Assembly (NCBI GenBank): GCA_022703645.1
Contig: JAKLDG010000001.1
Span: 163,274-227,273 of the forward strand
DNA from: Patescibacteria group bacterium
GTDB lineage: Bacteria > Patescibacteriota > JACPGU01
Length of the DNA: 64,000 bases
Reading direction: 5' to 3'
Below the pieces are notes generated by a model. The model was not told the origin of the DNA. It made no database searches and worked only from the letters and a program-made list of their open reading frames with translations. The stretch's first letter is position 1. Each line of letters opens with the position of its first letter. Shown here piece after piece: positions 7,447 to 61,001 of this stretch. A program made the translations under genes and the position numbers.

Positions 7447-8097
7447 ATGGACATCCGTTGGCTTGGTCATTCTTGTTTCGAGATAAAAAATAAAAGCATT
7501 TCTATTATTACGGATCCTTATAGTCCGGAGATCGGCTTGAAATTACCAAAATTGAAAGCTAATATTATTACTGTCAGCCACGATCATTATGACCACAATA
7601 ATATTGAGGCGATCGATAGCGCTTATGCTGATAAAAAACCATTTGTGATAGATGGCGATGGAGGATATGAGATTGAAGGAGTTCTTGTTGAAGGGATAAG
7701 AACTTTTCATGACGATAAGGGCGGAACGGAAAGAGGCCCCAACACTGTTTATGACATCAAAATAGATGGTATGACAGTTTGCCATCTCGGAGACCTTGGA
7801 GGGGATCTGACCGAAGAGCAAGTGGAAGAATTGGACGGCGTAGATATACTATTTGTTCCTGTTGGCGGCAAATATACTTTGGACGCAGAAGGAGCAGCAA
7901 AGGTGGTAAATAAAATCGAACCAAGAATTGTTATTCCAATGCATTATCAGATTGACGGATTGAAAATGGATATTGGCAATGCAGACAAATTTATTAAAGA
8001 AATAGGTTTGACTGCTGAAAATCTCGATTCATTGAAAATAGAGAAAAAAGATTTACCCGTGGAAGGAATGAGGCTAATTATTTTAAATAAAGCTTAA
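7447..8097 (+). CDS. MBL-fold metallo-hydrolase
   Basis: HxHxDH motif (SHDHYDH) and later conserved His/Asp residues. Confidence 0.75.
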   Translation: MDIRWLGHSCFEIKNKSISIITDPYSPEIGLKLPKLKANIITVSHDHYDHNNIEAIDSAYADKKPFVIDGDGGYEIEGVLVEGIRTFHDDKGGTERGPNTVYDIKIDGMTVCHLGDLGGDLTEEQVEELDGVDILFVPVGGKYTLDAEGAAKVVNKIEPRIVIPMHYQIDGLKMDIGNADKFIKEIGLTAENLDSLKIEKKDLPVEGMRLIILNKA

Positions 8098-8218
8098 ACG
8101 AAAAAATTTATACAAAAACATATAGTAGAATTTTTTCGTAAGAGGAGCAGTTGCGAAATGCTTGCAAGAAAAATTCGTAATTGAATTTTTATGAAGAGCA
8201 TATAGCGAACTGCGACGA

Positions 8219-8303
8219 GCCGCGGTGGCGGAACTGGCAGACGCGCAGGACTTAAAATCCTGTTCCCTAAACCGGAGTGCGGGTTCGACCCCCGCCCGCG
8301 GCA
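8219..8303 (+). tRNA. tRNA-Leu (anticodon TAA) with long variable arm
   Basis: acceptor GCCGCGG/CCGCGGC, D-arm TGGCGGAACTGGCAGACGCGC, anticodon stem CAGGA/TCCTG with loop CTTAAAA, T-arm GCGGGTTCGACCCCCGC, 85 nt. Confidence 0.8.
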
Positions 8304-8450
8304 TTTGTCTAGGCGACAGTAAGAAAGGTCATCTTCATTTTTTTGGAGATGATTTTTCTTTTGTGCGGGGGTCGAAGGGCGCGAGTAGAATGCGCCTATA
8401 AGAAGCATTCTGTGTGTAGCGCCCAGGCTCCGAGTCGGAGCGAGGAGGAT

Positions 8451-8479
8451 CCCCGCCCGCGGCATTTGTCTAGGCGACA
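8451..8479 (+). repeat. 29-bp exact direct repeat of the tRNA-Leu 3' end plus 15 bp of downstream flank (first copy 8290..8318): att-like duplication
   Basis: ccccgcccgcggcatttgtctaggcgaca occurs twice, 132 bp apart. Confidence 0.8.
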
Positions 8480-8636
8480 TATAAAAACAGCACACTTGTT
8501 TGAGGGTGTTGTTTTTATTTTATATGGGCTTTTTTTCTTTGCCCAAAATTTGCCAAAAATGAAATAAAAATCGCCATTTTTCGTATTAACAGTTATCGAG
8601 TTAATATATCTGTATATTATTTTTTAATTCAATAAA

Positions 8637-16658: not shown

Positions 16659-17870
16659 ATGGAAAACAAAACGACCCAATCTGGCCGTATCTATCTCGAT
16701 TGTTCCGCTACTACACCAACCGATCCGCGGGTTATGAAAAAAATGTGTGAATTTATGGAAAAGGATTTTGGCAATCCGTCATCAGTTCACGCTTTTGGAC
16801 GCGAGGCTCGGGGGAAAATCGAAGAAGCGCGCCGAAGTATCGCGGAATTTATCGGCTCAGACGATCCGATGGAAGTGATATTTACATCCGGCGGAACAGA
16901 ATCTGATAACATGGCAATTGTTGGAGTTGTTAAGGCAAGCAAGGTAAAAAAACCGCATATCATTACTTCTGTCATAGAACACAAAGCCGTTTTATCTACG
17001 ATTGAAGATTTGGAAAAAAGAGGTCTGGTTGAAGCTACATACCTGAAAGTTGACGGTTACGGGAAGGTGAATCTTGAAGATTTAAAAAAAGAAATTAAGT
17101 ATAATACGATATTAGTTTCAATTATGTATGTGAATAATGAGATTGGAACTGTCCAACCAATTCGTGAAATCGGCAAATATCTGGAAAAGCTAAATGACCA
17201 GAGAGAAAGAGGAGGCTTCCCAAAAGTATATTTTCATACAGATGCTGTACAGGCTTTTCAATATCTGAATGTAAATGTGAAACATCTGCATGTTGATTTG
17301 ATGTCGGTGTCTGGACATAAATTTTATGCGCCAAAGGGCATCGGGTTGCTTTTTATAAAAAAAGGAACTCATATTGAGAAAATTCAAATTGGTGGAGGAC
17401 AAGAATTTGGGAAGCGAGCCGGTACTGAAAATACGCCCGGGATTATCGCGTTATCGGCAGCGATTGATATATTAAAAAAAGAAGGCGAAAAAGACGGGGA
17501 AAGAATAGGGAAATTGAAAGATAAATTGGTAAAAGGTATTGAAAAAATCGAAAATGTAACTCTGACCGGTCATCCGAAAGACAGAATTCCATCTGTTGCA
17601 AGTTTTCTTTTTCATGGGATAGAAGGCGAAGCGATATTAATCAATCTTGATTTGGATGGAATCGCCGTATCTACCGGCAGCGCCTGCTCGTCCGGTTCGC
17701 TGGAAGCAAGCCATGTATTGCTCGCCTGTGGATATGATCACGAGCAAGCGCAGGGAAATATCCGTTTTTCACTTGGGCGCTTTACGCAGGAAAGTGATAT
17801 CAAGAAAGTATTGGAAGTTTTACCGGGAATTGTCGACAGGCTCAGGGAGATGTCGCCAATCGCTAATTAA
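16659..17870 (+). CDS. iscS: cysteine desulfurase IscS/NifS
   Basis: PLP-lysine motif SGHKFYAPKGIG and active-site Cys region STGSACSSGSLEASHVL. Confidence 0.9.
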   Translation: MENKTTQSGRIYLDCSATTPTDPRVMKKMCEFMEKDFGNPSSVHAFGREARGKIEEARRSIAEFIGSDDPMEVIFTSGGTESDNMAIVGVVKASKVKKPHIITSVIEHKAVLSTIEDLEKRGLVEATYLKVDGYGKVNLEDLKKEIKYNTILVSIMYVNNEIGTVQPIREIGKYLEKLNDQRERGGFPKVYFHTDAVQAFQYLNVNVKHLHVDLMSVSGHKFYAPKGIGLLFIKKGTHIEKIQIGGGQEFGKRAGTENTPGIIALSAAIDILKKEGEKDGERIGKLKDKLVKGIEKIENVTLTGHPKDRIPSVASFLFHGIEGEAILINLDLDGIAVSTGSACSSGSLEASHVLLACGYDHEQAQGNIRFSLGRFTQESDIKKVLEVLPGIVDRLREMSPIAN

Positions 17871-17917
17871 TATGCTAATTATTTGCCAATTATTACTAAT
17901 TAAATACAAAAATAAAA

Positions 17918-18313
17918 ATGAAACATTTTGTAGATGACTTAATTGAAGGTGACCTTAGTTATAAGATTATTGGATTATGTATGAAGGTGCATTCAGAATT
18001 AGGGAAATCTTATAAAGAGAAATACTATCAGAAAGCTTTAGAAATATCTTTTAAAAAAAATAGTATAAATTTTGTAAGAGAAATTAAGTTTGATTTAGGT
18101 TTTGAGGATGAAAAAATAGGCATGTCATATCTTGATTTTTTAGTTGAAAGTAAGATTGTAGTTGAATTAAAAGTAAAACCATTTATAAATAAAGTTGATA
18201 TAAAACAGGTACTTAGCTATCTAAAAACCACAGATATTAAACTAGGATTGATAATAAATTTTGGTAAAGATAGTTTGGAGTATAAAAGAATATTAAATTC
18301 AAATATAAAATAA
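17918..18313 (+). CDS. GxxExxY family protein (PD-(D/E)XK-like)
   Basis: family-typical layout; inserted between iscS and iscU. Confidence 0.75.
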   Translation: MKHFVDDLIEGDLSYKIIGLCMKVHSELGKSYKEKYYQKALEISFKKNSINFVREIKFDLGFEDEKIGMSYLDFLVESKIVVELKVKPFINKVDIKQVLSYLKTTDIKLGLIINFGKDSLEYKRILNSNIK

Positions 18314-18373
18314 TTGGCGAAAATTAGCGTTAATTCGCATATTAATTCGCGAAAAGAAATTAAGGAGAAAAAT

Positions 18374-18769
18374 ATGAACAACACAGACTATAACCCAAAA
18401 CTCATTGCGCATTTCCAAAACCCTCATAATGTTGGTGAGATAAAAGATGCTGACGGGGTGGGGCAAGTTGGAAACCCGATGTGCGGGGATACAATGAAAT
18501 TGACCATCAAGGTTGAGAGCCGATCCGATGGCAATGAATATATTACCGATGTCAAATTCAAAACATTTGGCTGCGCTTCAGCGATAGCTACTTCTTCAGT
18601 GGTCACAGATCTTGCAAAGGGAAAGACCCTGGAAGAAGCACTTCAAATCACCAAACAAGATGTTGCAGACGAAATTGGCGGATTGCCGGCAATCAAAATG
18701 CATTGCAGCAACCTCGCGGCAGATGCCCTGCAAGCTGCAATAGCAGACTACCGCAGTAAAAAGGGGTAA
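18374..18769 (+). CDS. iscU: Fe-S cluster assembly scaffold IscU/NifU
   Basis: GNPMCGD, KFKTFGCASAIA, HCS motifs; ATG at 18374. Confidence 0.85.
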   Translation: MNNTDYNPKLIAHFQNPHNVGEIKDADGVGQVGNPMCGDTMKLTIKVESRSDGNEYITDVKFKTFGCASAIATSSVVTDLAKGKTLEEALQITKQDVADEIGGLPAIKMHCSNLAADALQAAIADYRSKKG

Positions 18770-18890
18770 TTTTTCAATTTTCAAGTATCAATTTTCAATC
18801 AATTTCCAATTATTCAATATTCAATTGTGTATTGTGAAATTGTAACATTTATTGAGAATTGTAAATTGAGAATTGAGAATTTTATTATTA
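18770..18890. repeat. AT-rich palindromic spacer element (caatt/aattg family)
   Basis: ttttcaattttcaagtatcaattttcaatcaatttccaatt ... aattgtaaattgagaattgagaatt. Confidence 0.6.
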
Positions 18891-20179
18891 TGTCAAAAAA
18901 ATCTTTAAATAAAAAACCTAGAGTGGTAGTCGCGATGAGCGGAGGTGTCGACAGCTGCGTCGCTGCTTATTTATTGAAAAAGCAAGGATACGAAGTTATT
19001 GGAGTTTTTTTGAAATTCTGGACACCGCCGGTTTCTGTCTGTGGCACCTCGCGTGAAAATGCATGCTGTGATATGCGAGCGCTTTTGTTGGCCCGCCAAG
19101 TGGCTGGACAATTAGACATACCCTTTTATACTGTTAATGTGTCCAGTTATTTTAAAAAAGAGATAGTGGACAATTTTGTCCATGAATATGAGTCGGGTCG
19201 CACACCGAATCCTTGTGTCAGGTGTAATGAGAAGATAAAATTCGGAGTTCTTTGGAAAAAAGCGAGAGCGCTTGGAGCCGACTATCTCGCGACTGGACAC
19301 TATGTTAGGAAATGTCAAATGTCAAATATCAAATATCAAAAGAAATCAAAAATTAGTCATTTGTCATTTGAAATTGATTCGAAATTTGACATTTGTAATT
19401 TGACATTCAGTCTTATGCGCAGCAAAGACGTTAACAAGGACCAGGCCTATTTCTTAAGCGGTATTGATGCGAGAATAATCCCACACTTGCTGTTTCCTCT
19501 TGGCGATATGGTGAAAAAAGATGTCCGTGAGATTGCAAAAAAAGCCAAACTACCAGTTTATAATAAAAAAGATTCCACCGGAATCTGTTTTATACCTGAT
19601 GGCGATACTTCATCATTTCTTTCTCATTATTCAAATAAACTGAACAAATCAGGTAATATTGTGGATAAAAATGGGAATGTACTTGGAAAACATAAGGGTT
19701 TGATGGGATATACGGTTGGGGAAAAGATTGGAGGAGAAATTTTCAATTTTCAATTTTCAATTTTCAATCAATATTCAATACCCAATATTCAAGATCAAAA
19801 GGATAAAATAAAAAAAGACGTTCCTCGTTTATACGTAATAAGGATTGATGTTAAAAAAAATCGCTTAATCATCGGTGAAAACGAAGATTGTTTTACAGAT
19901 ACGCTGATTGCTGAAGATGTGAATATTATTGGTTCCGATCTTTTTACAAAGAAAACTATTTTAGCTCAAATCAGAGGCGGTCATAAACCCGAACGTTGTC
20001 ATATTGTAGGGGCGGGGATTTCCCCCGCCCGAATTAAAGGGCGACCGCAAGGGTCGCCCCTACGGGTTTCCAAATTAAATATTAAATTTCTCAAACCTGT
20101 TCGCGCTGTAACTCCGGGACAGACTGTGGCTTTTTATGATCTCAAAGGGAAACTTCTTGGCGGGGGAATAATCAAATAA
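18890..20179 (+). CDS. mnmA: tRNA 2-thiouridylase MnmA carrying three in-frame repeat insertions
   Basis: PP-loop VVVAMSGGVDSCV, NPCVRCN, C-terminal conserved region; ATG at 18890; about 60-70 extra residues from the insertions at 19311..19407, 19735..19795 and 20006..20063. Confidence 0.8.
   Translation: MSKKSLNKKPRVVVAMSGGVDSCVAAYLLKKQGYEVIGVFLKFWTPPVSVCGTSRENACCDMRALLLARQVAGQLDIPFYTVNVSSYFKKEIVDNFVHEYESGRTPNPCVRCNEKIKFGVLWKKARALGADYLATGHYVRKCQMSNIKYQKKSKISHLSFEIDSKFDICNLTFSLMRSKDVNKDQAYFLSGIDARIIPHLLFPLGDMVKKDVREIAKKAKLPVYNKKDSTGICFIPDGDTSSFLSHYSNKLNKSGNIVDKNGNVLGKHKGLMGYTVGEKIGGEIFNFQFSIFNQYSIPNIQDQKDKIKKDVPRLYVIRIDVKKNRLIIGENEDCFTDTLIAEDVNIIGSDLFTKKTILAQIRGGHKPERCHIVGAGISPARIKGRPQGSPLRVSKLNIKFLKPVRAVTPGQTVAFYDLKGKLLGGGIIK
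20006..20063. repeat. GC-rich GTAG-headed REP-like palindromic element (58 nt) inserted in frame in mnmA
   Basis: gtaggggcgggg...ccccgccc...gggcgacc-gcaa-gggtcgcccctac; outer GTAGGGGC/GCCCCTAC stem enclosing two internal hairpins. Confidence 0.6.
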
Positions 20180-20263
20180 TTATTGACTTTTTGTTGTATT
20201 ATTTTTTATTTCTATTATTTGAAAATTAATAATTTGCTTACGCAAGCCATAAAAAACGCTATT

Positions 20264-20291
20264 TGACATATCGTTTTTTTTGTATAGAATG
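20264..20291 (+). promoter_or_regulatory. sigma70-like promoter TTGACA-16-TAGAAT in the long leader upstream of the giant surface-protein gene
   Basis: near-consensus -35/-10 hexamers. Confidence 0.4.
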
Positions 20292-20365
20292 TTGTTAGTT
20301 TATCGATTTGGGATCAAACGCTCGCTATACTTTTACAGGTTTGTTCGCGTTTGAAAAAAAGCTGT

Positions 20366-20393
20366 TGACTATGTTTCAAGTAAATATATAATT
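20366..20393 (+). promoter_or_regulatory. sigma70-like promoter TTGACT-16-TATAAT, roughly 500 nt upstream of 20899
   Basis: consensus -10 and near-consensus -35 hexamers. Confidence 0.45.
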
Positions 20394-20898
20394 GAATAGT
20401 AAAGCAGATAAAAATCAATTTATGAAGAAGTAACAAATGCGGTTTTCATGATAGTTTTCGGTTGTTAATTAATTTGTTTGTTTACGGTTTTTTTTACATA
20501 TTTGCACATTAATAATTAGGGTAAATTCACATTCGACAGAAAATTAAAAGTTGTGGAAAAGTCTGAAATTTTTTAAAAAAAAATTTCATCCCGAGCTTGT
20601 CGAGGGATTATTTTTCCAACAGACTTTAAGTCATATTTAATTAATTTATTTTTGTTAGTCGAAACAAAAACAAAAGGTCGAAACCTCAATCGGTATAAAA
20701 ACTTTTTGGGGACTCTTGTTTCACGCGAGTCTTGCAGGGGCTTATCGCATAAGCCCGAAGACAGCAAAATAAATTCTTCTTGCTCGTGAGTAATCACAAG
20801 TTTGAAGAGAAAGTGTTAATAAAAATATAAAATAATATTAAAAAAGAAATCTTAACTCGCAACAATAATTTGCGATTAAGAAAAGGAGGACATACAAA

Positions 20899-24473: not shown

Positions 24474-25049
24474 ATGGAAAACGTACAATCATATAAACAA
24501 AAAAACAAAAAATCAAGAAAACAAATCCGACTCAATGATTACGATTATAGCGAACCAGGGGATTATTTCGTAACGATTTGTACGCAAGATAGAGGGTGTT
24601 TGTTTGGGAAGATTGTAGATGGAGAGATGGTTTTGAATGATTTAGGCGAGATTGTCGAAAATGAAATATCAAATATTCCAAAAAGATTTAAAAATTCAGA
24701 AATCGATATCCATTCCGTTATGCCAAATCACCTGCATTTAATAATTTCAATTTTATGTGATGATGATATTGTAGGGGCAACCCTTGCGGTTGCCTATAAT
24801 AACCGGGCAGGGGCAAGCCCTGCCCCTACAATAGGGGATATCGTCGGTTCGTTTAAATCATTATGTTTTAAAGAATATAAAAAATATGTTGAGAAAAATG
24901 ATTTAAATTTACAAACAAAATTTTGGCAGCGTAATTATTATGAAGAAATAATTAAGAATGAAAGACATTATAATGAGGTGTATAATTATATTTTATCCAA
25001 TCCTTCTAAATGGGAAGAGGATAGAAATAACCCAAATAATATAGTATAA
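24474..25049 (+). CDS. IS200/RAYT-like HUH Y1 transposase (REP-associated tyrosine transposase family)
   Basis: YFVTICTQDRG...FG N-terminal motif; HUH motif PNHLHLII; C-terminal WQRNYYEEIIKNERHYNEVYNYILSNPSKWEED (catalytic Tyr region typical of RAYT/TnpA_IS200-like proteins); carries an internal GC-rich palindrome. Confidence 0.65.
   Translation: MENVQSYKQKNKKSRKQIRLNDYDYSEPGDYFVTICTQDRGCLFGKIVDGEMVLNDLGEIVENEISNIPKRFKNSEIDIHSVMPNHLHLIISILCDDDIVGATLAVAYNNRAGASPAPTIGDIVGSFKSLCFKEYKKYVEKNDLNLQTKFWQRNYYEEIIKNERHYNEVYNYILSNPSKWEEDRNNPNNIV
24771..24829. repeat. GC-rich GTAG-headed REP-like palindromic element (59 nt) inserted in frame inside the RAYT-like gene
   Basis: gtaggggcaacccttgcggttgcc...gggcaggggcaagccctgcccctac; flanked by ttgtagggg/cccctacaa as in the mnmA copy. 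Confidence 0.6.
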
Positions 25050-38671: not shown

Positions 38672-38702
38672 GGTGAAGGGTTTAGGGTATAGGGTATAGT
38701 AG

Positions 38703-38729
38703 GGGCGAGCCGTTGGCTCGCCCATTTTT
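38703..38729 (+). terminator. rho-independent terminator of greA (gggcgagcc-gtt-ggctcgccc plus T-run), preceded by GTAG like the REP-like elements
   Basis: 9-bp GC stem plus ATTTTT. Confidence 0.7.
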
Positions 38730-46356: not shown

Positions 46357-47829
46357 ATGGCTAATTTAAATAATCTTACAATTAGTAAAGCTTCTGAACT
46401 TCTTGAAAAAAAAGAAGTTAGTTCGGTTGAATTGACAAATTATTATCTTGAAAGGATTGAAAAGCTCAATCCAGAGCTGGGAGCATATTTAAGTACTGAG
46501 AAAGAATATGCGCTAAAAAAGGCTAGGGAAAGTGATGAGAGAATTAAATCTGGAAAAAGAATCGGAATTCTTGACGGGATTCCTTGTTCGGTAAAAGATG
46601 TTATTACTACAAAGGATATAGAGACAACCGCAGCCAGCAAAATTCTAGAAGGCTATATCGCCCCGTATAGCGCAACTGTTGTTCGCAAGATCGAGGAGCA
46701 GGGAGCAGTGATTCTTGGTAAAAATAATTGTGATGAGTTTGCGATGGGATCTTCTACTGAAAATTCAGCTTATATGTTAGCAAAAAATCCTTGGGATTTA
46801 TCCCGTGTGCCTGGTGGTTCTTCCGGCGGGTCAGCAGTAGCAGTTGCAGCCGATTTATGCGTATTTTCTTTTGGCACCGAGACAGGGGGATCAATCCGCC
46901 AGCCGGCGTCTCTTTGCTCTGTTGTGGGGCTGAAACCAACATATGGAAGAAATTCACGCTATGGTTCTATTGCTTACGGATCATCGCTCGATCAGATAGG
47001 GGTATTTGGGAAGTGTGTTGAGGACATTTCATCTGTAATGCATGTTATTGCGGGTAAAGATTCTTTAGATTCTACAACAGTAGAATATCCAATATTCAAT
47101 ATCCAATATCCAATCAATACTCAATATCCAATGAAAGATTTAAAAATCGGTATACCAAAGGAATATTTTGGCGAAGGATTGGATAGCGAAGTTGAGAAAA
47201 TCGTTCGTGATGCGATTGACAAATATAAAGAAATGGGAGCTGAAATCATTGATATTTCACTCCCAAACACTGAATATGCAACTCCTTGCTACTATTTATT
47301 ATCAATGGCAGAGGCCAGCAGTAATCTGGCTCGTTATGATGGTATTAAGTATGGTAAATCTGAAACTGACAACGCAAAAGACTTAATTGATGTTTATTTT
47401 AAAACGCGTGGTAAGTATTTTGGGGATGAACAAAAAAGAAAGTCAATTCTGGGAACATTTGAGCTATCAGCTGGATATTATGATGCCTATTACCGCAAAG
47501 CACAGAAAGCTAGATCTTTGGTAAAAAAAGATTTTGATGATGCATTTGAAAAAATCGACTGTATTATGTGTCCTGTTTCTCCTTTTCCAGCATTCAAAAT
47601 CGGAGAGAAGAAAGACGACCCGCTTTCAATGTATCTGGCGGATATTTTTACAATCTCAGCAAATCTTGCGGGAATTTGCGCTCTTTCTATACCAGCAGGA
47701 TTTACGCAAAATAATTTACCGGTTGGCTTACAGATCATGGGTCCAAGATTTGATGAGGATAAGATTCTTCAAATAGCCAAAGCATATGAAGAAATGACGC
47801 AGTGGCATACTATGTTTCCAAGCATCTGA
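46357..47829 (+). CDS. gatA: Asp/Glu-tRNA amidotransferase subunit A (amidase)
   Basis: amidase signature GGSSGGSAVAVAA, catalytic Ser/Lys context; contains in-frame AT-rich repeat insertion encoding YPIFNIQYPINTQYPM (47083..47132). Confidence 0.9.
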   Translation: MANLNNLTISKASELLEKKEVSSVELTNYYLERIEKLNPELGAYLSTEKEYALKKARESDERIKSGKRIGILDGIPCSVKDVITTKDIETTAASKILEGYIAPYSATVVRKIEEQGAVILGKNNCDEFAMGSSTENSAYMLAKNPWDLSRVPGGSSGGSAVAVAADLCVFSFGTETGGSIRQPASLCSVVGLKPTYGRNSRYGSIAYGSSLDQIGVFGKCVEDISSVMHVIAGKDSLDSTTVEYPIFNIQYPINTQYPMKDLKIGIPKEYFGEGLDSEVEKIVRDAIDKYKEMGAEIIDISLPNTEYATPCYYLLSMAEASSNLARYDGIKYGKSETDNAKDLIDVYFKTRGKYFGDEQKRKSILGTFELSAGYYDAYYRKAQKARSLVKKDFDDAFEKIDCIMCPVSPFPAFKIGEKKDDPLSMYLADIFTISANLAGICALSIPAGFTQNNLPVGLQIMGPRFDEDKILQIAKAYEEMTQWHTMFPSI

Positions 47830-54175: not shown

Positions 54176-55126
54176 ATGAAAAATATTTGGAAAGAACTAT
54201 CGAAAGATAAAAAACCTTTTGTTGCGTTAGCGCCTATGGCTGGTGTGACCGATTTTCCATTTCGGGAGATAATTGCGGAAATAGGAAAGCCTGATGTGAT
54301 GTTTACGGAATTCGTTTCTACAGAACATATCGCAAGGGTTTCTGAAACGCCTTTGGTTTTGAAATTTTCAAAAAAGCAGCGACCGATTATCGCGCAATTT
54401 TTTGGTTCAAAGCCGGAACAGTTTGAAAAATGCGCGCAATTAGCATTAAAATTAGGATTTGATGGGATAGATATCAATATGGGCTGCCCTGATCGCAAGG
54501 TTCTAAAACAAGGCGCGGGATCGGAACTTATAAAAAATTCAGAGTTAGCGGTCGAGATTATCCGCACGGTAAAAAAAGTTGTCGACGGTAAAATCCCTGT
54601 TTCGGTCAAAACGAGGATAGGATGGGACGAAAAAAATATTTCAAAATATTTGGAAATATTAAAAAATATTGTTGCCACGGAAAATATCAGTGCGATAACA
54701 ATTCATGGGAGAACTGCAAAACAAGGGTATTCTGGCAATGCAGACTGGGAGACTATCGGAAAATTTACAAAAGAATTGAAAAAAGTAAATAAAAATTTAA
54801 TCGTGATTGGGAATGGTGACATCAAAAATTTGGCGCAAGGAAAAATGTTAGTTGATAAATACGACCTTGATGGATTTATGATTGGTCGCCAAATTCTCAA
54901 AAATCCTTGGGTATTCAGTAGCGGCAGAAAATTTTCTGCCCCTACGATACGAAAAAGGTTAAAAATCGCCCTGAAGCATACGGAACTTTTTCAAAAATTC
55001 TATGGCGAGAAGGCTTCATTTGGCGCAATGAAAAAATACTATAAAGCATATCTATCCGGTTTTGAAATCAAAAAAGATTTGATGAATGCGAAGAATTTTG
55101 AAGAAGCGAAGAAGATTTTAAAATAA
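54176..55126 (+). CDS. dus: tRNA-dihydrouridine synthase (Dus family)
   Basis: LAPMAGVTDFPFREI, DINMGCPDRKV, TIHGRT motifs; carries an in-frame 28-nt REP-like insertion encoding GRKFSAP. Confidence 0.85.
   Translation: MKNIWKELSKDKKPFVALAPMAGVTDFPFREIIAEIGKPDVMFTEFVSTEHIARVSETPLVLKFSKKQRPIIAQFFGSKPEQFEKCAQLALKLGFDGIDINMGCPDRKVLKQGAGSELIKNSELAVEIIRTVKKVVDGKIPVSVKTRIGWDEKNISKYLEILKNIVATENISAITIHGRTAKQGYSGNADWETIGKFTKELKKVNKNLIVIGNGDIKNLAQGKMLVDKYDLDGFMIGRQILKNPWVFSSGRKFSAPTIRKRLKIALKHTELFQKFYGEKASFGAMKKYYKAYLSGFEIKKDLMNAKNFEEAKKILK
54917..54944. repeat. 28-nt GTAG-headed palindromic REP-like element inserted in frame in dus
   Basis: gtagcggcagaaaattttctgcccctac; 27/28 identical to the copy in prmC. 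Confidence 0.6.
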
Positions 55127-60146: not shown

Positions 60147-61001
60147 TTAAATTTCAACGATAACGACGCGGTCTTTTTTTGCGAGGTCTTTTTTTATATC
60201 AACCACAGCATTTGGGAAAAACTTTTTTGCGATCTTGATGATTTTATTTTTTTGGCTCGGATTGATCTCGAGAAACAAAGAGAGACTATCCCATTTTCTT
60301 TCTTTTATCTGGCTAAATAGTTTCTCGTAGATTTCCAAGCCTTCTTTGCCGCCGTAGAGCGCCAGACGAGGCTCTTTGGTAATGCTTGGCTCTTGCAACT
60401 CATCATGCGTGAGATAAGGCAAATTAGCGACGATGATATCAGGTTTAGATTTGATGTTTTGTAATAGATCTGATTTTTTGAATCGGATATTGGATATTGG
60501 GTATTGGGTATTTCGAAGGTTGTATCTAGCAACCTTCAGCGCTTTCTCTGAAATGTCTACCGCTGTTATTTTCGTTTTTGGCAAGTATTTTGCGAGAGTT
60601 AAAGCTATACAACCCGAACCGGTACCGATTTCAAGGATTCTGGTAGGGGCAGAAAATTTTCTGCCCCTACAATAGTTGATAACGTTTTCAACGATCAACT
60701 CGGTTTCAGGACGGGGAACGAGAACATCCTCATTTACATAAAAATCAATCCCATAGAACTCTTTTTTACCTACAATGTACGCGATAGGGTAGTTTTTTTT
60801 GCGTTTGGAAATCAATTTTTTGTATTTATTGAATTGGGCATTGGTCATTGGGTATTGGGTATTTGAAATTAGTTTTTCTAAATTACACCCCAATAAAAAA
60901 CTAATAAGTATTTCCGCATCTAACCTGGCAGAAGGGATACTTGACATTCTTAATTCATTTGTTCCATACTTTAGCGCTTTATCTACGGAAATAATTGACA
61001 T
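60147..61001 (-). CDS. prmC: release factor glutamine N5-methyltransferase PrmC/HemK with in-frame repeat insertions
   Basis: motif I ILEIGTGSGCIALTLA, VLVPRPETE, catalytic IVANLPYL (NPPY-like); peptide repeats QYPMTNAQF / QYPISNIRF come from AT-rich repeat copies; CRGRKFSAPT comes from the 28-nt REP-like element. Confidence 0.8.
   Translation of the reverse strand: MSIISVDKALKYGTNELRMSSIPSARLDAEILISFLLGCNLEKLISNTQYPMTNAQFNKYKKLISKRKKNYPIAYIVGKKEFYGIDFYVNEDVLVPRPETELIVENVINYCRGRKFSAPTRILEIGTGSGCIALTLAKYLPKTKITAVDISEKALKVARYNLRNTQYPISNIRFKKSDLLQNIKSKPDIIVANLPYLTHDELQEPSITKEPRLALYGGKEGLEIYEKLFSQIKERKWDSLSLFLEINPSQKNKIIKIAKKFFPNAVVDIKKDLAKKDRVVIVEI
60643..60670. repeat. 28-nt perfect palindrome GTAGGGGCAGAAAATTTTCTGCCCCTAC (REP-like) inserted in frame in prmC
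   Basis: 14+14 self-complementary; near-identical to 54917..54944. Confidence 0.65.

What the first reader, a model, noticed from the sequence alone, without database searches (positions are those of the whole stretch)
18890..20179. mnmA carries three independent in-frame repeat insertions yet keeps an intact reading frame
MnmA motifs (SGGVDS PP-loop, NPCVRCN) are intact, but the ORF is about 60-70 codons longer than usual. The extra segments coincide exactly with (a) a 97-nt gtcaaat/atttgac hairpin at 19311..19407, (b) a ttttcaatt-type left arm at 19735..19795, and (c) the 58-nt GTAG REP-like element at 20006..20063. Tolerating three separate palindromic insertions in one essential tRNA-modification enzyme implies either insertion into surface loops under purifying selection for frame, or post-transcriptional removal.
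Basis: seen in the sequence. Interest (0 to 1): 0.55.

Follow-up and report, generated by a model that had tools for sequence, protein, structure and literature searches.

The report
Three repeat insertions inside intact mnmA
A tRNA-modification gene (mnmA) of an ultrasmall Patescibacteria bacterium carries three pieces of repetitive "selfish" DNA inserted in frame into outer loops of the enzyme, a situation long known from Rickettsia and from REP elements but apparently not yet described for this phylum.

Summary
mnmA (18890-20179, 429 aa) is an intact ORF with all MnmA motifs. It is about 65-69 residues longer than insert-free homologues. An AlphaFold model gives a confident MnmA core (TM 0.86 to 2HMA/2DET), with low confidence only at the three blocks.

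Element (c) is a GTAG-tagged REP doublet. A RAYT-like Y1 transposase gene lies 4.3 kb downstream. Element (b) is the left arm of an AT-rich heptamer-repeat hairpin family with six intergenic copies in the window. Element (a) is a complete but degraded hairpin of the same style.

Translation is inferred. Intergenic copies are open in only 3 of 84 frames. Element (a) is open only in the frame used, and restoring its hairpin creates a TGA. No intron or RNA family matched.

Seven syntenic orthologues carry different, genome-specific elements in the same loops, so these loops are long-standing hot spots. prmC, gatA, dus and the RAYT gene in the window also carry such elements.

This is a new member of a known kind (Rickettsia RPEs, intragenic GTAG REPs), of moderate interest.

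The parts
18890..20179 (+). mnmA coding sequence (tRNA 2-thiouridine(34) synthase), 429 aa, intact
   Evidence: ORF list and sequence. Pfam PF03054/PF20259/PF20258. PDB MnmA hits at E 2e-61. AF2 mean pLDDT 88 and Foldseek TMt 0.86-0.87 to 2HMA/2DET. The source names it HRY60191.1 MnmA, Patescibacteria group bacterium.
19311..19407 (+). Insert (a): AT-rich hairpin whose arms are tandem heptamers (AAATGTC/AAATATC on the left, TTTGACA/TTTGTAA on the right). It encodes roughly aa 142-172 at the tip of a beta-hairpin in the catalytic domain.
   Evidence: Inverted repeat I2 and fold z -2.5. pLDDT 46-67 between strands E138-144 and E172-177. Open in 1 of 6 frames. Perfecting the hairpin gives a TGA. 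No other copy in the window.
19735..19795 (+). Insert (b): left arm only of the dispersed TTTTCAAT heptamer-hairpin family. It encodes about aa 283-302 in a loop between the central and C-terminal beta-barrels.
   Evidence: Alignment A4 with six intergenic copies, mean column identity 75%. D1 and I1. No fold, z +1.1. Open in all 3 sense frames and closed in all 3 antisense frames. pLDDT about 60.
20006..20063 (+). Insert (c): GTAG-tagged REP doublet, two inverted REPs each made of GTAG, an 8-bp GC stem and a 5-nt loop. It encodes VGAGISPARIKGRPQGSPLR at the tip of a beta-hairpin in the C-terminal domain.
   Evidence: Fold -40.2 kcal/mol, z -4.5. Census of GTAG elements. Doublets with the same position and phase in orthologues P0005 and P0007, 61 and 55 nt long. 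pLDDT 62-79 between E368-376 and E392-405.
18767..18889 (+). Intergenic full-length heptamer hairpin between nifU and mnmA. It is the closest relative of insert (b).
   Evidence: Fold -34.6 kcal/mol, z -5.7. 1-6 stops in every frame. Alignment A4.
24474..25049 (+). RAYT-like HUH/Y1 transposase gene, the candidate mobiliser of GTAG REPs. It carries a REP doublet of its own at 24771-24829.
   Evidence: NCBIfam NF047646 REP-associated tyrosine transposase, E 3e-14, or E 4e-18 with the doublet removed; both are below the curated cut-off. Best PDB hit is E. coli TnpA-REP 4ER8. HUH H86/H88 and Y172 are invariant in A3.
24771..24829 (+). REP doublet inside the RAYT-like ORF (peptide VGATLAVAYNNRAGASPAPT)
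   Evidence: The feature is conserved in homologues from other phyla.
38699..38723 (+). Single GTAG REP, the only intergenic copy in the window
54918..54945 (+). 28-nt palindromic GTAG REP inside the dus (tRNA-dihydrouridine synthase-like) ORF; peptide SGRKFSAPT
60643..60670 (-). The same 28-nt GTAG REP inside prmC; peptide CRGRKFSAPT
60481..60515 (-). Heptamer array inside prmC (peptide NTQYPISNIRF)
60833..60863 (-). Second heptamer array inside prmC (peptide NTQYPMTNAQF)
47083..47132 (+). Heptamer array inside gatA (peptide EYPIFNIQYPINTQYP)
16659..18769 (+). Operon context: cysteine desulfurase (16659-17870), PDDEXK_3 ORF (17918-18313) and NifU/IscU (18314-18769) upstream of mnmA. The arrangement is syntenic in all seven orthologue loci.

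Best explanation
mnmA here is a functional gene carrying three translated, in-frame insertions of repetitive palindromic DNA from at least two unrelated classes.

(c) is a GTAG-tagged REP doublet of the REP/REPIN type. It was most likely placed by a RAYT-family HUH/Y1 single-strand transposase, such as the one encoded 4.3 kb downstream. This step is inferred, not shown.

(a) and (b) come from the AT-rich hairpin elements, with arms built of tandem heptamers, that fill many intergenic spacers of this genome. How these elements move is unknown.

Only copies that land in permissive surface loops, one in each of the three MnmA domains, and that stay stop-free in frame survive. After insertion, selection for an open frame erodes the hairpin. 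In (a) a TGA-avoiding mismatch is seen. In (b) the stop-rich right arm is missing. The result is a normal MnmA core with three floppy peptide protrusions of about 20-30 residues.

The same loops carry different, genome-specific elements in orthologues. They therefore act as long-lived landing pads with rapid turnover rather than sites of three recent accidents.
For: Shown:
- The ORF and catalytic motifs are intact.
- The extra residues sit in three blocks that match the elements.
- The AF2 core is confident and only the three blocks have low pLDDT; (a) and (c) are at beta-hairpin tips. Foldseek gives TMt 0.86-0.87 to MnmA structures.
- (b) aligns with six intergenic family members, including their irregular spacing.
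- (c) shares the GTAG + GC stem-loop architecture with four other loci in the window. One of its REPs differs from the RAYT-internal REP only by a compensated pair: GTAGGGGCGACCCTTGCGGTCGCC against GTAGGGGCAACCCTTGCGGTTGCC.
- The RAYT-like gene has HUH and Tyr motifs.
- Intergenic AT-rich elements are open in only 3 of 84 frames, whereas (a) is open in exactly the frame used.
- Making the arms of (a) perfectly complementary creates an in-frame TGA.
- Seven syntenic orthologues have about 20 further inserts at the same four loops, all in frame and stop-free, built from other units: AAGAATC, AAATCTC, CCGAAT hairpins, GTAG doublets and a three-hairpin GC element.
- The sequence is identical over 7,290 nt in a JGI metagenome contig and an NCBI MAG. 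The same protein is recorded on contigs of several different lengths (244,728 to 867,473 nt) from JGI, NCBI and ENA.
- No Rfam family or intron matched, and no terminator-like site lies on the inserts.

Precedent: RPEs inserted in frame in Rickettsia genes (PMC10969869). Intragenic GTAG REP dimers encoding 20-30 aa (PMC3733652).
Against: - There are no RNA or protein data, so translation of the inserts is inferred from sequence only.
- The RAYT-like protein scores below NCBIfam's curated cut-off (65.6 against 80 bits) and is not flanked by REPs within 400 nt.
- Element lengths are not multiples of three (58 nt for (c)), so the simple picture of 'element in, frame kept' needs extra flanking changes.
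- No target-site duplications or terminal inverted repeats typical of MITEs were seen by eye for (a) or (b).
- (a) has no second copy in the 64 kb available.
- In prmC and gatA, similar arrays occupy loops with a net gain of only 1-3 residues. This fits replacement or in-situ generation better than plain insertion.
- Distance of the insert sites from the bound tRNA could not be measured.
Confidence: 0.8

Rival explanations
1. The heptamer stretches (a) and (b) arose in place, by replication slippage and fold-back template switching in AT-rich loop-coding DNA, or were copied in by gene conversion from intergenic elements. They did not arrive by transposition of a discrete element.
For: Each array has its own heptamer unit and is internally homogeneous. 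The window, P0003 and P0006 start the site-a array at the same codon and phase but with different units (AAATGTC against AAATCTC), as expected for concerted evolution of an old array. Arrays in gatA and prmC add only 1-3 residues compared with solved homologues. (a) has no other copy in the window. No target-site duplication or transposase is linked to these elements.
Against: (b) shares with six intergenic copies not only the heptamer but also the irregular, non-periodic tail (CAATCAAT..TTCAAT..), which slippage alone would not recreate. Within one genome the same unit appears at different loops: AAGAATC at sites a and b of P0005, and CCGAAT at sites b and c of P0009. This argues for copying between loci, although gene conversion would produce the same pattern.
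Confidence: 0.2
2. The inserts are adaptive, lineage-specific protein extensions, for example surfaces for a partner protein. They are selected as peptides, and the DNA repeats are secondary.
For: The same loops are extended in many Patescibacteria MnmAs: 31, 28 and 12 of 79 homologues at sites a, b and c. Heptamer DNA repeats translate into 7-residue peptide repeats. AF2 predicts short helices at 291-294 and 300-309.
Against: The inserted peptides are not conserved between orthologues, while the nucleic-acid architecture is. REP stems change by compensated pairs while the peptide changes freely. The same DNA families occur in non-coding spacers. pLDDT is low.
Confidence: 0.08
3. The inserts are removed after transcription, by intron-like or RNase-mediated excision and religation, or are skipped by the ribosome, so the protein has normal length.
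For: (a) and (c) form hairpins that bring their ends together.
Against: No group I/II intron or other Rfam family matched at E <= 1 beyond chance-level miRNA or sRNA hits. (b) has no structure at all. All inserts in eight orthologues are in frame and stop-free, which excision would not require. The stop-avoiding mismatch in (a) only makes sense if it is translated. From my own knowledge, no bacterial mechanism is known that splices such hairpins out of mRNA.
Confidence: 0.03
4. The gene is a pseudogene, or the inserts are assembly artefacts caused by repeats.
For: Repeats can mislead assemblers.
Against: The sequence is identical over 7,290 nt in a JGI metagenome contig and an NCBI MAG, and the same protein appears on several further large contigs. 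The ORF is intact with every invariant MnmA residue. The nifS-nifU-mnmA operon is conserved, with analogous inserts in seven orthologues from unrelated samples.
Confidence: 0.02

Closest known systems
Rickettsia palindromic elements (RPEs; Ogata et al. 2000, as summarised in PMC10969869)
   Same: Palindromic repeats are inserted in frame into many unrelated housekeeping genes of a reduced genome. They are compatible with the fold of the host protein, and several genes are hit more than once.
   Different: RPEs are about 100-150 bp families with a conserved encoded peptide, found in an alphaproteobacterium. There is no sequence similarity to the elements here. The elements here are shorter (58-97 nt) and belong to two other architectures.
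GTAG-tagged REPs, REP dimers/REPINs and their RAYT transposases (Nunvar 2010; Bertels & Rainey 2011, PMC3337134; Di Nocera et al. 2013, PMC3733652)
   Same: Element (c) has a GTAG head, a GC-rich stem-loop, and two units in inverted orientation with a short spacer. A RAYT-like HUH/Y1 gene is present in the genome. Di Nocera et al. already report intragenic GTAG REP dimers encoding 20-30 aa, sometimes twice in one ORF and at the same site in related species.
   Different: Here 4 of the 5 GTAG loci in the window are inside ORFs, which matches the 84% coding density, whereas classical REPs are mostly extragenic. The two REPs of the doublet have different stems. The RAYT-like gene is not flanked by REPs but contains a doublet. 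The phylum is Patescibacteria, for which I found no report.
Tandem heptanucleotide repeats of cyanobacteria (STRR) and the TAACTGA repeats of Beggiatoaceae (PMC4679880)
   Same: Short arrays of about 3-8 tandem 7-nt units are dispersed through the genome, mostly between genes.
   Different: Here the arrays come as two inverted arms forming a long AT-rich hairpin. The unit varies from copy to copy around a CAAT core. Arms also occur inside ORFs in the sense orientation.
MITEs that create in-frame fusions (ERIC, BOX, Correia, Anabaena MITEs; review PMC10969869)
   Same: Small non-autonomous palindromic elements can be read through as part of a host ORF.
   Different: No terminal inverted repeats with target-site duplication, and no cognate IS, were identified for (a) or (b).

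Membership tests
MnmA (tRNA 2-thiouridine(34) synthase) | PP-loop SGGxDS ATP-binding motif and N-type ATP-pyrophosphatase (HUP) domain | tested here: met
   SGGVDS at aa 17-22. PF03054 E 1e-70 over aa 11-236.
MnmA (tRNA 2-thiouridine(34) synthase) | Catalytic cysteines (E. coli C102 and C199 equivalents) | tested here: met
   C109 (and C112, a CxxC arrangement) and C233 are invariant columns in 79 homologues. E. coli numbering is taken from PMC5372745.
MnmA (tRNA 2-thiouridine(34) synthase) | Three-domain fold: catalytic domain, central barrel, C-terminal barrel | tested here: met
   AF2 mean pLDDT 88. Foldseek 2HMA/2DET/2DER/2DEU E 1e-32 to 1e-37, TMt 0.85-0.87. PF20259 and PF20258.
MnmA (tRNA 2-thiouridine(34) synthase) | Thiolation activity on tRNA U34 | not testable with these tools
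   Needs biochemistry or complementation.
REP / REPIN (element c) | Short imperfect palindrome tagged at one end by GTAG | tested here: met
   GTAG-GGGCGGGG-ATTTC-CCCCGCCC, and on the other strand GTAG-GGGCGACC-CTTGC-GGTCGCCC.
REP / REPIN (element c) | [quoted passage not shown] | tested here: inconclusive
   Inverted orientation and an 8-nt spacer are present. The ends GTAGGGGC/GCCCCTAC pair, but the two inner stems differ, so the fold is a three-way structure rather than one long hairpin.
REP / REPIN (element c) | Many copies per genome | tested here: inconclusive
   There are 5 loci (7 REP units) in 64 kb against 0.8 expected for the pattern. The rest of the genome was not available.
REP / REPIN (element c) | Predominantly extragenic location | tested here: not met
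   4 of 5 loci lie inside ORFs. The coding fraction is 0.84.
REP / REPIN (element c) | A RAYT gene with HUH and Tyr motifs in the same genome | tested here: met
   ORF 24474-25049: NF047646 E 4e-18 (below the cut-off of 80 bits), PDB 4ER8, H86/H88 and Y172 invariant. A second paralogue, P0151, is listed with the same 867,473-nt longest contig as the window's proteins.
REP / REPIN (element c) | RAYT gene flanked by its REPs (REPtron) | tested here: not met
   No GTAGGGGS or SCCCCTAC within 400 nt outside the ORF; only the internal doublet is present.
REP / REPIN (element c) | Cleavage or mobilisation of the REP by the RAYT | not testable with these tools
   Needs in vitro ssDNA cleavage or observation of new insertions.
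Rickettsia palindromic elements | Sequence membership in RPE-1 to RPE-10 families | not tested
   No RPE sequences were compared. The size (58-97 nt against roughly 100-150 bp) and the host differ. This is treated as an analogy only.
MITE (elements a, b) | Terminal inverted repeats plus target-site duplication | tested here: inconclusive
   (a) is palindromic throughout, but no flanking direct duplication was seen by eye. (b) has one arm only.
Self-splicing intron / other structured RNA | Match to a curated RNA family | tested here: not met
   Rfam at E <= 1 over 18500-20500 gave only chance-level miRNA or sRNA hits far below gathering scores. The whole window at gathering thresholds gave three tRNAs only.

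The most novel reading that the evidence does not exclude
The palindromes may be kept as nucleic-acid structures inside coding sequence, not merely tolerated.

At site c, three non-sister orthologues keep a perfect GTAG REP doublet. The stems differ only by compensated pairs, while the encoded peptide drifts.

The RAYT-like transposase clade of this genome carries a REP doublet inside its own ORF, at the same position in Patescibacteria, Bacteroidota, Deltaproteobacteria and Schekmanbacteria.

This would point to an 'intragenic REPtron', in which the transposase gene and its substrate are fused. The internal doublet could be the master copy or a self-regulatory site. Particular loops of housekeeping genes such as mnmA would then serve as heritable landing pads that are repeatedly re-seeded.
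Probability: 0.2. Interest if true: 0.7.

Novelty: new member of a known kind. Interest (0 to 1): 0.4.

Why it matters
The finding shows that the Rickettsia-style phenomenon of selfish palindromic DNA living inside housekeeping proteins also operates in Patescibacteria (CPR), another lineage with tiny genomes and a host-dependent lifestyle.

It has practical consequences:
- Lengths and 'lineage-specific insertions' of CPR proteins can be repeat-derived. They should not be read as functional domains.
- Gene callers extend N-termini into intergenic hairpins. Here mnmA is called as 450 aa in NCBI/ENA against 429 aa in JGI.
- Low-complexity peptides such as VGA..SP..PLR or QISNLKSQ in metagenomic proteins are translated repeats.

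It also gives a natural map of permissive loops in MnmA, one per domain.

The side observation that a widespread RAYT clade encodes a REP doublet within its own reading frame could bear on how REPs are seeded and maintained. That needs separate work.

Tried and rejected
- Scans of genome contigs and metagenome contigs with the MnmA protein returned only distant MnmAs at 30-41% identity. They gave no sister strains with or without the inserts, and both caps are now used.
- A sliding-window MFE scan of the window was dominated by GC content. It missed the AT-rich hairpins, although it did reveal the intragenic GTAG elements.
- The gapless inverted-repeat search found only some of the hairpins.
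- Rfam scans of the mnmA region, of three orthologue loci and of the whole window found no family for any element. ARAGORN found no tRNA-like gene in the three-hairpin element of P0004/P0007.
- The terminator scan found nothing on the inserts.
- Target-site duplications around (a), (b) and (c) were looked for by eye only, and none was seen. A recurring TATT just 5' of GTAG was noted but not evaluated statistically.
- Mapping the inserts against the tRNA in 2DER/2DEU was not possible, because neither model nor PDB coordinates are exposed to the script tool. Only secondary structure, pLDDT and domain assignment could be used.
- Literature searches combining Patescibacteria/CPR with palindromic in-frame repeats, or with RAYT/REPIN, found no paper on the subject.
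- Strain-level variation: all recorded copies of the protein are identical, so no polymorphism for the inserts could be assessed.
Full report
**What is there.** The ORF from ATG 18890 to the stop at 20177-20179 encodes 429 residues without interruption. It is an MnmA. Pfam finds the HUP catalytic domain (aa 11-236, E 1e-70), the central PRC-barrel (242-285) and the end of the C-terminal barrel (395-428). The best solved relatives are MnmA structures 9HLN, 2HMA and 2DER (E 2e-61 to 2e-54). The PP-loop SGGVDS, NPCVRCN and the second catalytic cysteine (C233) are present, and every invariant column of a 79-sequence alignment is kept. The gene follows a cysteine desulfurase and a NifU/IscU gene. 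The exact protein is recorded as HRY60191.1, 'MnmA, Patescibacteria group bacterium'. The window has 37.7% G+C.

**Checking the observation.** Insert-free homologues are 358-366 aa, and the window protein is 429 aa. In the 79-sequence alignment the window's surplus sits in three low-occupancy blocks, aa 150-169, 282-310 and 374-393, totalling 69 residues. HMMER alignments to solved structures break at 142/172, at 281, and resume at 394. These positions are those of the three DNA elements.
- (a) 19311-19407 is an inverted repeat with 41-nt arms, 76% complementary. It folds at -21.6 kcal/mol, z -2.5.
- (b) 19735-19795 is a run of AATTTTC heptamers with no partner arm and no fold (z +1.1).
- (c) 20006-20063 runs from GTAG to CTAC and folds into two GC hairpins closed by the paired ends, at -40.2 kcal/mol, z -4.5.

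Strict period-7 arrays number 11 in the window against none in shuffles. The GTAG pattern occurs 5 times against 0.8 expected. 'Coincide exactly' is slightly generous: the extra codons span 60 nt against a 58-nt element for (c), and 87 nt against 61 nt for (b).

**Not an artefact, not a pseudogene.** A JGI metagenome contig and an NCBI MAG contig are identical to the window over 7,290 nt around the gene. The same protein is recorded on further large contigs.

**Where the inserts sit in the protein.** An AlphaFold2 model built on 79 homologues has mean pLDDT 88 and pTM 0.86. The only stretches below about 70 are 141-170, 281-310 and 371-390.
- Insert (a) lies between strands E138-144 and E172-177, the tip of a beta-hairpin in the catalytic domain.
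- Insert (c) lies between E368-376 and E392-405, the tip of a hairpin in the C-terminal barrel.
- Insert (b) lies between the central and C-terminal barrels.

Foldseek matches 2HMA, 2DET, 2DER and 2DEU with TM 0.85-0.87 normalised to the target and 0.70-0.75 normalised to the query. The gap between the two scores reflects the extra residues. Domain limits of E. coli MnmA are taken from PMC5372745. I could not measure distances to the bound tRNA.

**What the elements are: (c).** It is a doublet of GTAG-tagged REPs: GTAG-GGGCGGGG-ATTTC-CCCCGCCC and, on the other strand, GTAG-GGGCGACC-CTTGC-GGTCGCCC. The window holds four more GTAG loci:
- a doublet at 24771-24829;
- a 28-nt palindrome at 54918-54945, in a dus-like ORF;
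- the same 28-nt palindrome at 60643-60670, in prmC;
- a single REP at 38699-38723, between genes.

Four of the five are inside ORFs, about what the 84% coding density predicts. The doublet at 24771-24829 lies inside an ORF (24474-25049) that is a RAYT-like HUH/Y1 transposase. It matches NCBIfam 'REP-associated tyrosine transposase' at E 3e-14, rising to 4e-18 as a single continuous match when the doublet is deleted, though below the curated cut-off. Its best PDB match is E. coli TnpA-REP, 4ER8. H86/H88 and Y172 are invariant among homologues. One REP of the mnmA doublet differs from the first REP in the RAYT gene only by one compensated base pair. GTAG REPs, REP doublets (REPINs) and RAYTs are an established system (PMC3337134). 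Intragenic GTAG REP dimers encoding 20-30 residues have been described in several bacteria (PMC3733652).

**What the elements are: (a) and (b).** Many intergenic spacers of the window hold AT-rich hairpins whose arms are tandem heptamers around a CAAT core. An example is 18767-18889, directly upstream of mnmA, which folds at -34.6 kcal/mol, z -5.7. Insert (b) aligns with the left arms of six such intergenic copies, including their irregular non-periodic tail, with mean column identity 75%. It is also 85% complementary to the right arm of the upstream hairpin. Insert (a) has both arms but its own unit (AAATGTC/AAATATC), and it has no second copy in the 64 kb. Similar single arms lie in gatA (47083-47132) and twice in prmC (60481-60515, 60833-60863). 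All five intragenic arrays have the CAAT orientation on the sense strand. prmC therefore carries three repeat-derived stretches as well, so mnmA is not unique in this genome.

**Are the inserts translated?** This is inferred, not shown. Fourteen intergenic AT-rich elements are open in only 3 of their 84 reading frames.
- Insert (a) is open in one frame of six, the one used.
- Insert (b) is open in all three sense frames and closed in all three antisense frames. Its missing right arm (ATTGAAA/ATTGAGA) would bring TGA codons.
- Insert (c) is open in two of six frames, including the one used.

Replacing the right arm of (a) by the exact complement of the left arm creates an in-frame TGA. The observed TTTGTAA in place of TTTGACA is the mismatch that avoids it. 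Rfam finds no intron or other family, and no terminator-like site falls on the inserts.

**Orthologues.** Seven relatives at 57-63% identity, all with the nifS-nifU-mnmA-large surface protein synteny, were read at the DNA level. The same loops, plus a fourth near residue 50, carry elements in them too, but the elements are genome-specific:
- AAGAATC hairpins at sites a and b of P0005;
- AAATCTC/AAATCCC arrays in P0003 and P0006;
- CCGAAT hairpins in P0007 (site a) and P0009 (sites b and c);
- an 82-nt three-hairpin GC element at site b of P0004 and P0007;
- GTAG doublets at site c of P0005 and P0007, and at the fourth site of P0009.

All are in frame and stop-free. The three site-c GTAG doublets are 58, 61 and 55 nt long, all 1 mod 3, with GTA as a codon and the final C starting an Arg codon. 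Their stems differ by compensated pairs while the peptides differ. In a neighbour-joining tree on 312 ungapped columns, without bootstrap, these three lineages are not each other's closest relatives. Either there were repeated gains at one spot, or one gain followed by several losses or replacements. The site-a array begins at the same codon and phase in the window, P0003 and P0006, which suggests an old insertion with concerted change of the unit. Across 79 homologues, extensions of 8 or more residues occur at sites a, b and c in 31, 28 and 12 sequences. Apart from the N-terminus and the fourth loop, such extensions are uncommon elsewhere.

**Mechanism.** The best-supported account is passenger DNA.
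1. Elements land in, or are copied into, coding DNA.
2. Only events in permissive outer loops that remain open in frame persist.
3. Selection then removes stops at the expense of the hairpin.
4. Loops that already hold an element stay tolerant and are re-used.

For (c), the RAYT-type single-strand transposase is the natural agent by analogy with E. coli TnpA-REP, but I did not test this. For (a) and (b), the mode of spread is open. In-place slippage or gene conversion remains a serious alternative. One reason is that arrays in gatA and prmC add only 1-3 residues relative to solved homologues.

**Comparison with what is known, and novelty.** In-frame palindromic repeats in housekeeping genes are the hallmark of Rickettsia RPEs (PMC10969869). 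Intragenic GTAG REPs are documented, including double hits in one gene and the same site in related species (PMC3733652). Tandem heptamers are known from cyanobacteria and Beggiatoaceae (PMC4679880). My searches found no paper treating this in Patescibacteria. I therefore rate the finding as a new member of a known kind, of moderate interest.

**Side observation.** The less ordinary point is that the REP doublet inside the RAYT-like ORF is conserved. In 27 of 29 aligned homologues, from at least four phyla, the peptide V-G-A-x-L-A-x-A ... A-P-T appears at the same place. In five homologues read as DNA, this peptide is encoded by a GC-rich GT(A/C)GGGGC...GCCCC(T/G)AC hairpin or doublet with compensated stem changes. 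I did not find this mentioned in the RAYT/HUH survey I checked.

Noticed in passing
window 24474-25049 (doublet at 24771-24829); loci L053, L054, L055, L056: The RAYT-like transposase carries a GTAG REP doublet inside its own ORF, between the HUH and Tyr motifs. The feature is conserved: 27 of 29 aligned homologues (Patescibacteria, Pedobacter, Deltaproteobacteria, Schekmanbacteria) show VGAxLAxA...APT at this place. In 5 homologues read as DNA it is a GC-rich hairpin or doublet with compensated stem changes. In four of the five there is no REP within 400 nt outside the gene. I found no mention of this in the papers checked.
   Followed up: partly
window 60147-61001 (-), prmC: prmC also contains three repeat-derived stretches: heptamer arrays at 60481-60515 and 60833-60863, and a 28-nt GTAG palindrome at 60643-60670. 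The net length change is only +1 to +3 residues against T. maritima HemK, so repeats seem able to overwrite loop-coding DNA without lengthening it.
   Followed up: partly
window 47083-47132 (gatA) and 54918-54945 (dus-like ORF 54176-55126): There is a heptamer array in a gatA linker, +2 residues against 4WJ3. The same 28-nt GTAG palindrome as in prmC lies in a dihydrouridine-synthase-like ORF, read in the same frame (GRKFSAPT).
   Followed up: partly
L004 and L009, mnmA site b (orthologues P0007 and P0004): An 82-nt GC-rich element with an outer stem and three hairpins (cctcaccc...gggtgagg) sits in frame in two orthologues. Hairpin 3 shows a compensated G-C to A-T change between them. There is no Rfam or tRNA match.
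   Followed up: partly
window 18827-18889: NCBI and ENA call mnmA as 450 aa from GTG 18827. That start would translate the right arm of the intergenic hairpin (MYCEIVTFIENCKLRIENFII). JGI and the homologues support ATG 18890 (429 aa).
   Followed up: yes
window 8219-8530: tRNA-Leu(taa) at 8219-8303 is followed about 160 nt downstream by a second copy of its 3' end plus the next 15 nt (CCCCGCCCGCGGCATTTGTCTAGGCGACA). This resembles the att duplication left by a small integrated element. The 133-aa minus-strand ORF 8094-8495 over this region is probably spurious.
   Followed up: no
window 17918-18313: A PDDEXK_3 (PF13366) ORF is wedged between the cysteine desulfurase and nifU genes. Among the syntenic loci it is present only here and in L004, which suggests a mobile or recently acquired gene inside the operon.
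   Followed up: no
window 20000-20006, 24765-24771, 24829-24835, 60670-60676; L055 1771-1777: The bases just outside the GTAG tag are often (C/G/A)(A/T)TATT. This occurs at mnmA, at both ends of the RAYT doublet, in the paralogue P0151 and at one end of the prmC element. It may be part of the element or a target preference. The numbers are too small to judge.
   Followed up: no
window 18890-20179, residues C109, C112, C233: The CxxC...C arrangement, rather than E. coli's DxxC...C, together with the adjacent nifS and nifU genes, suggests the iron-sulfur-cluster-dependent type of MnmA. This rests on my recollection of the literature and was not tested here.
   Followed up: no
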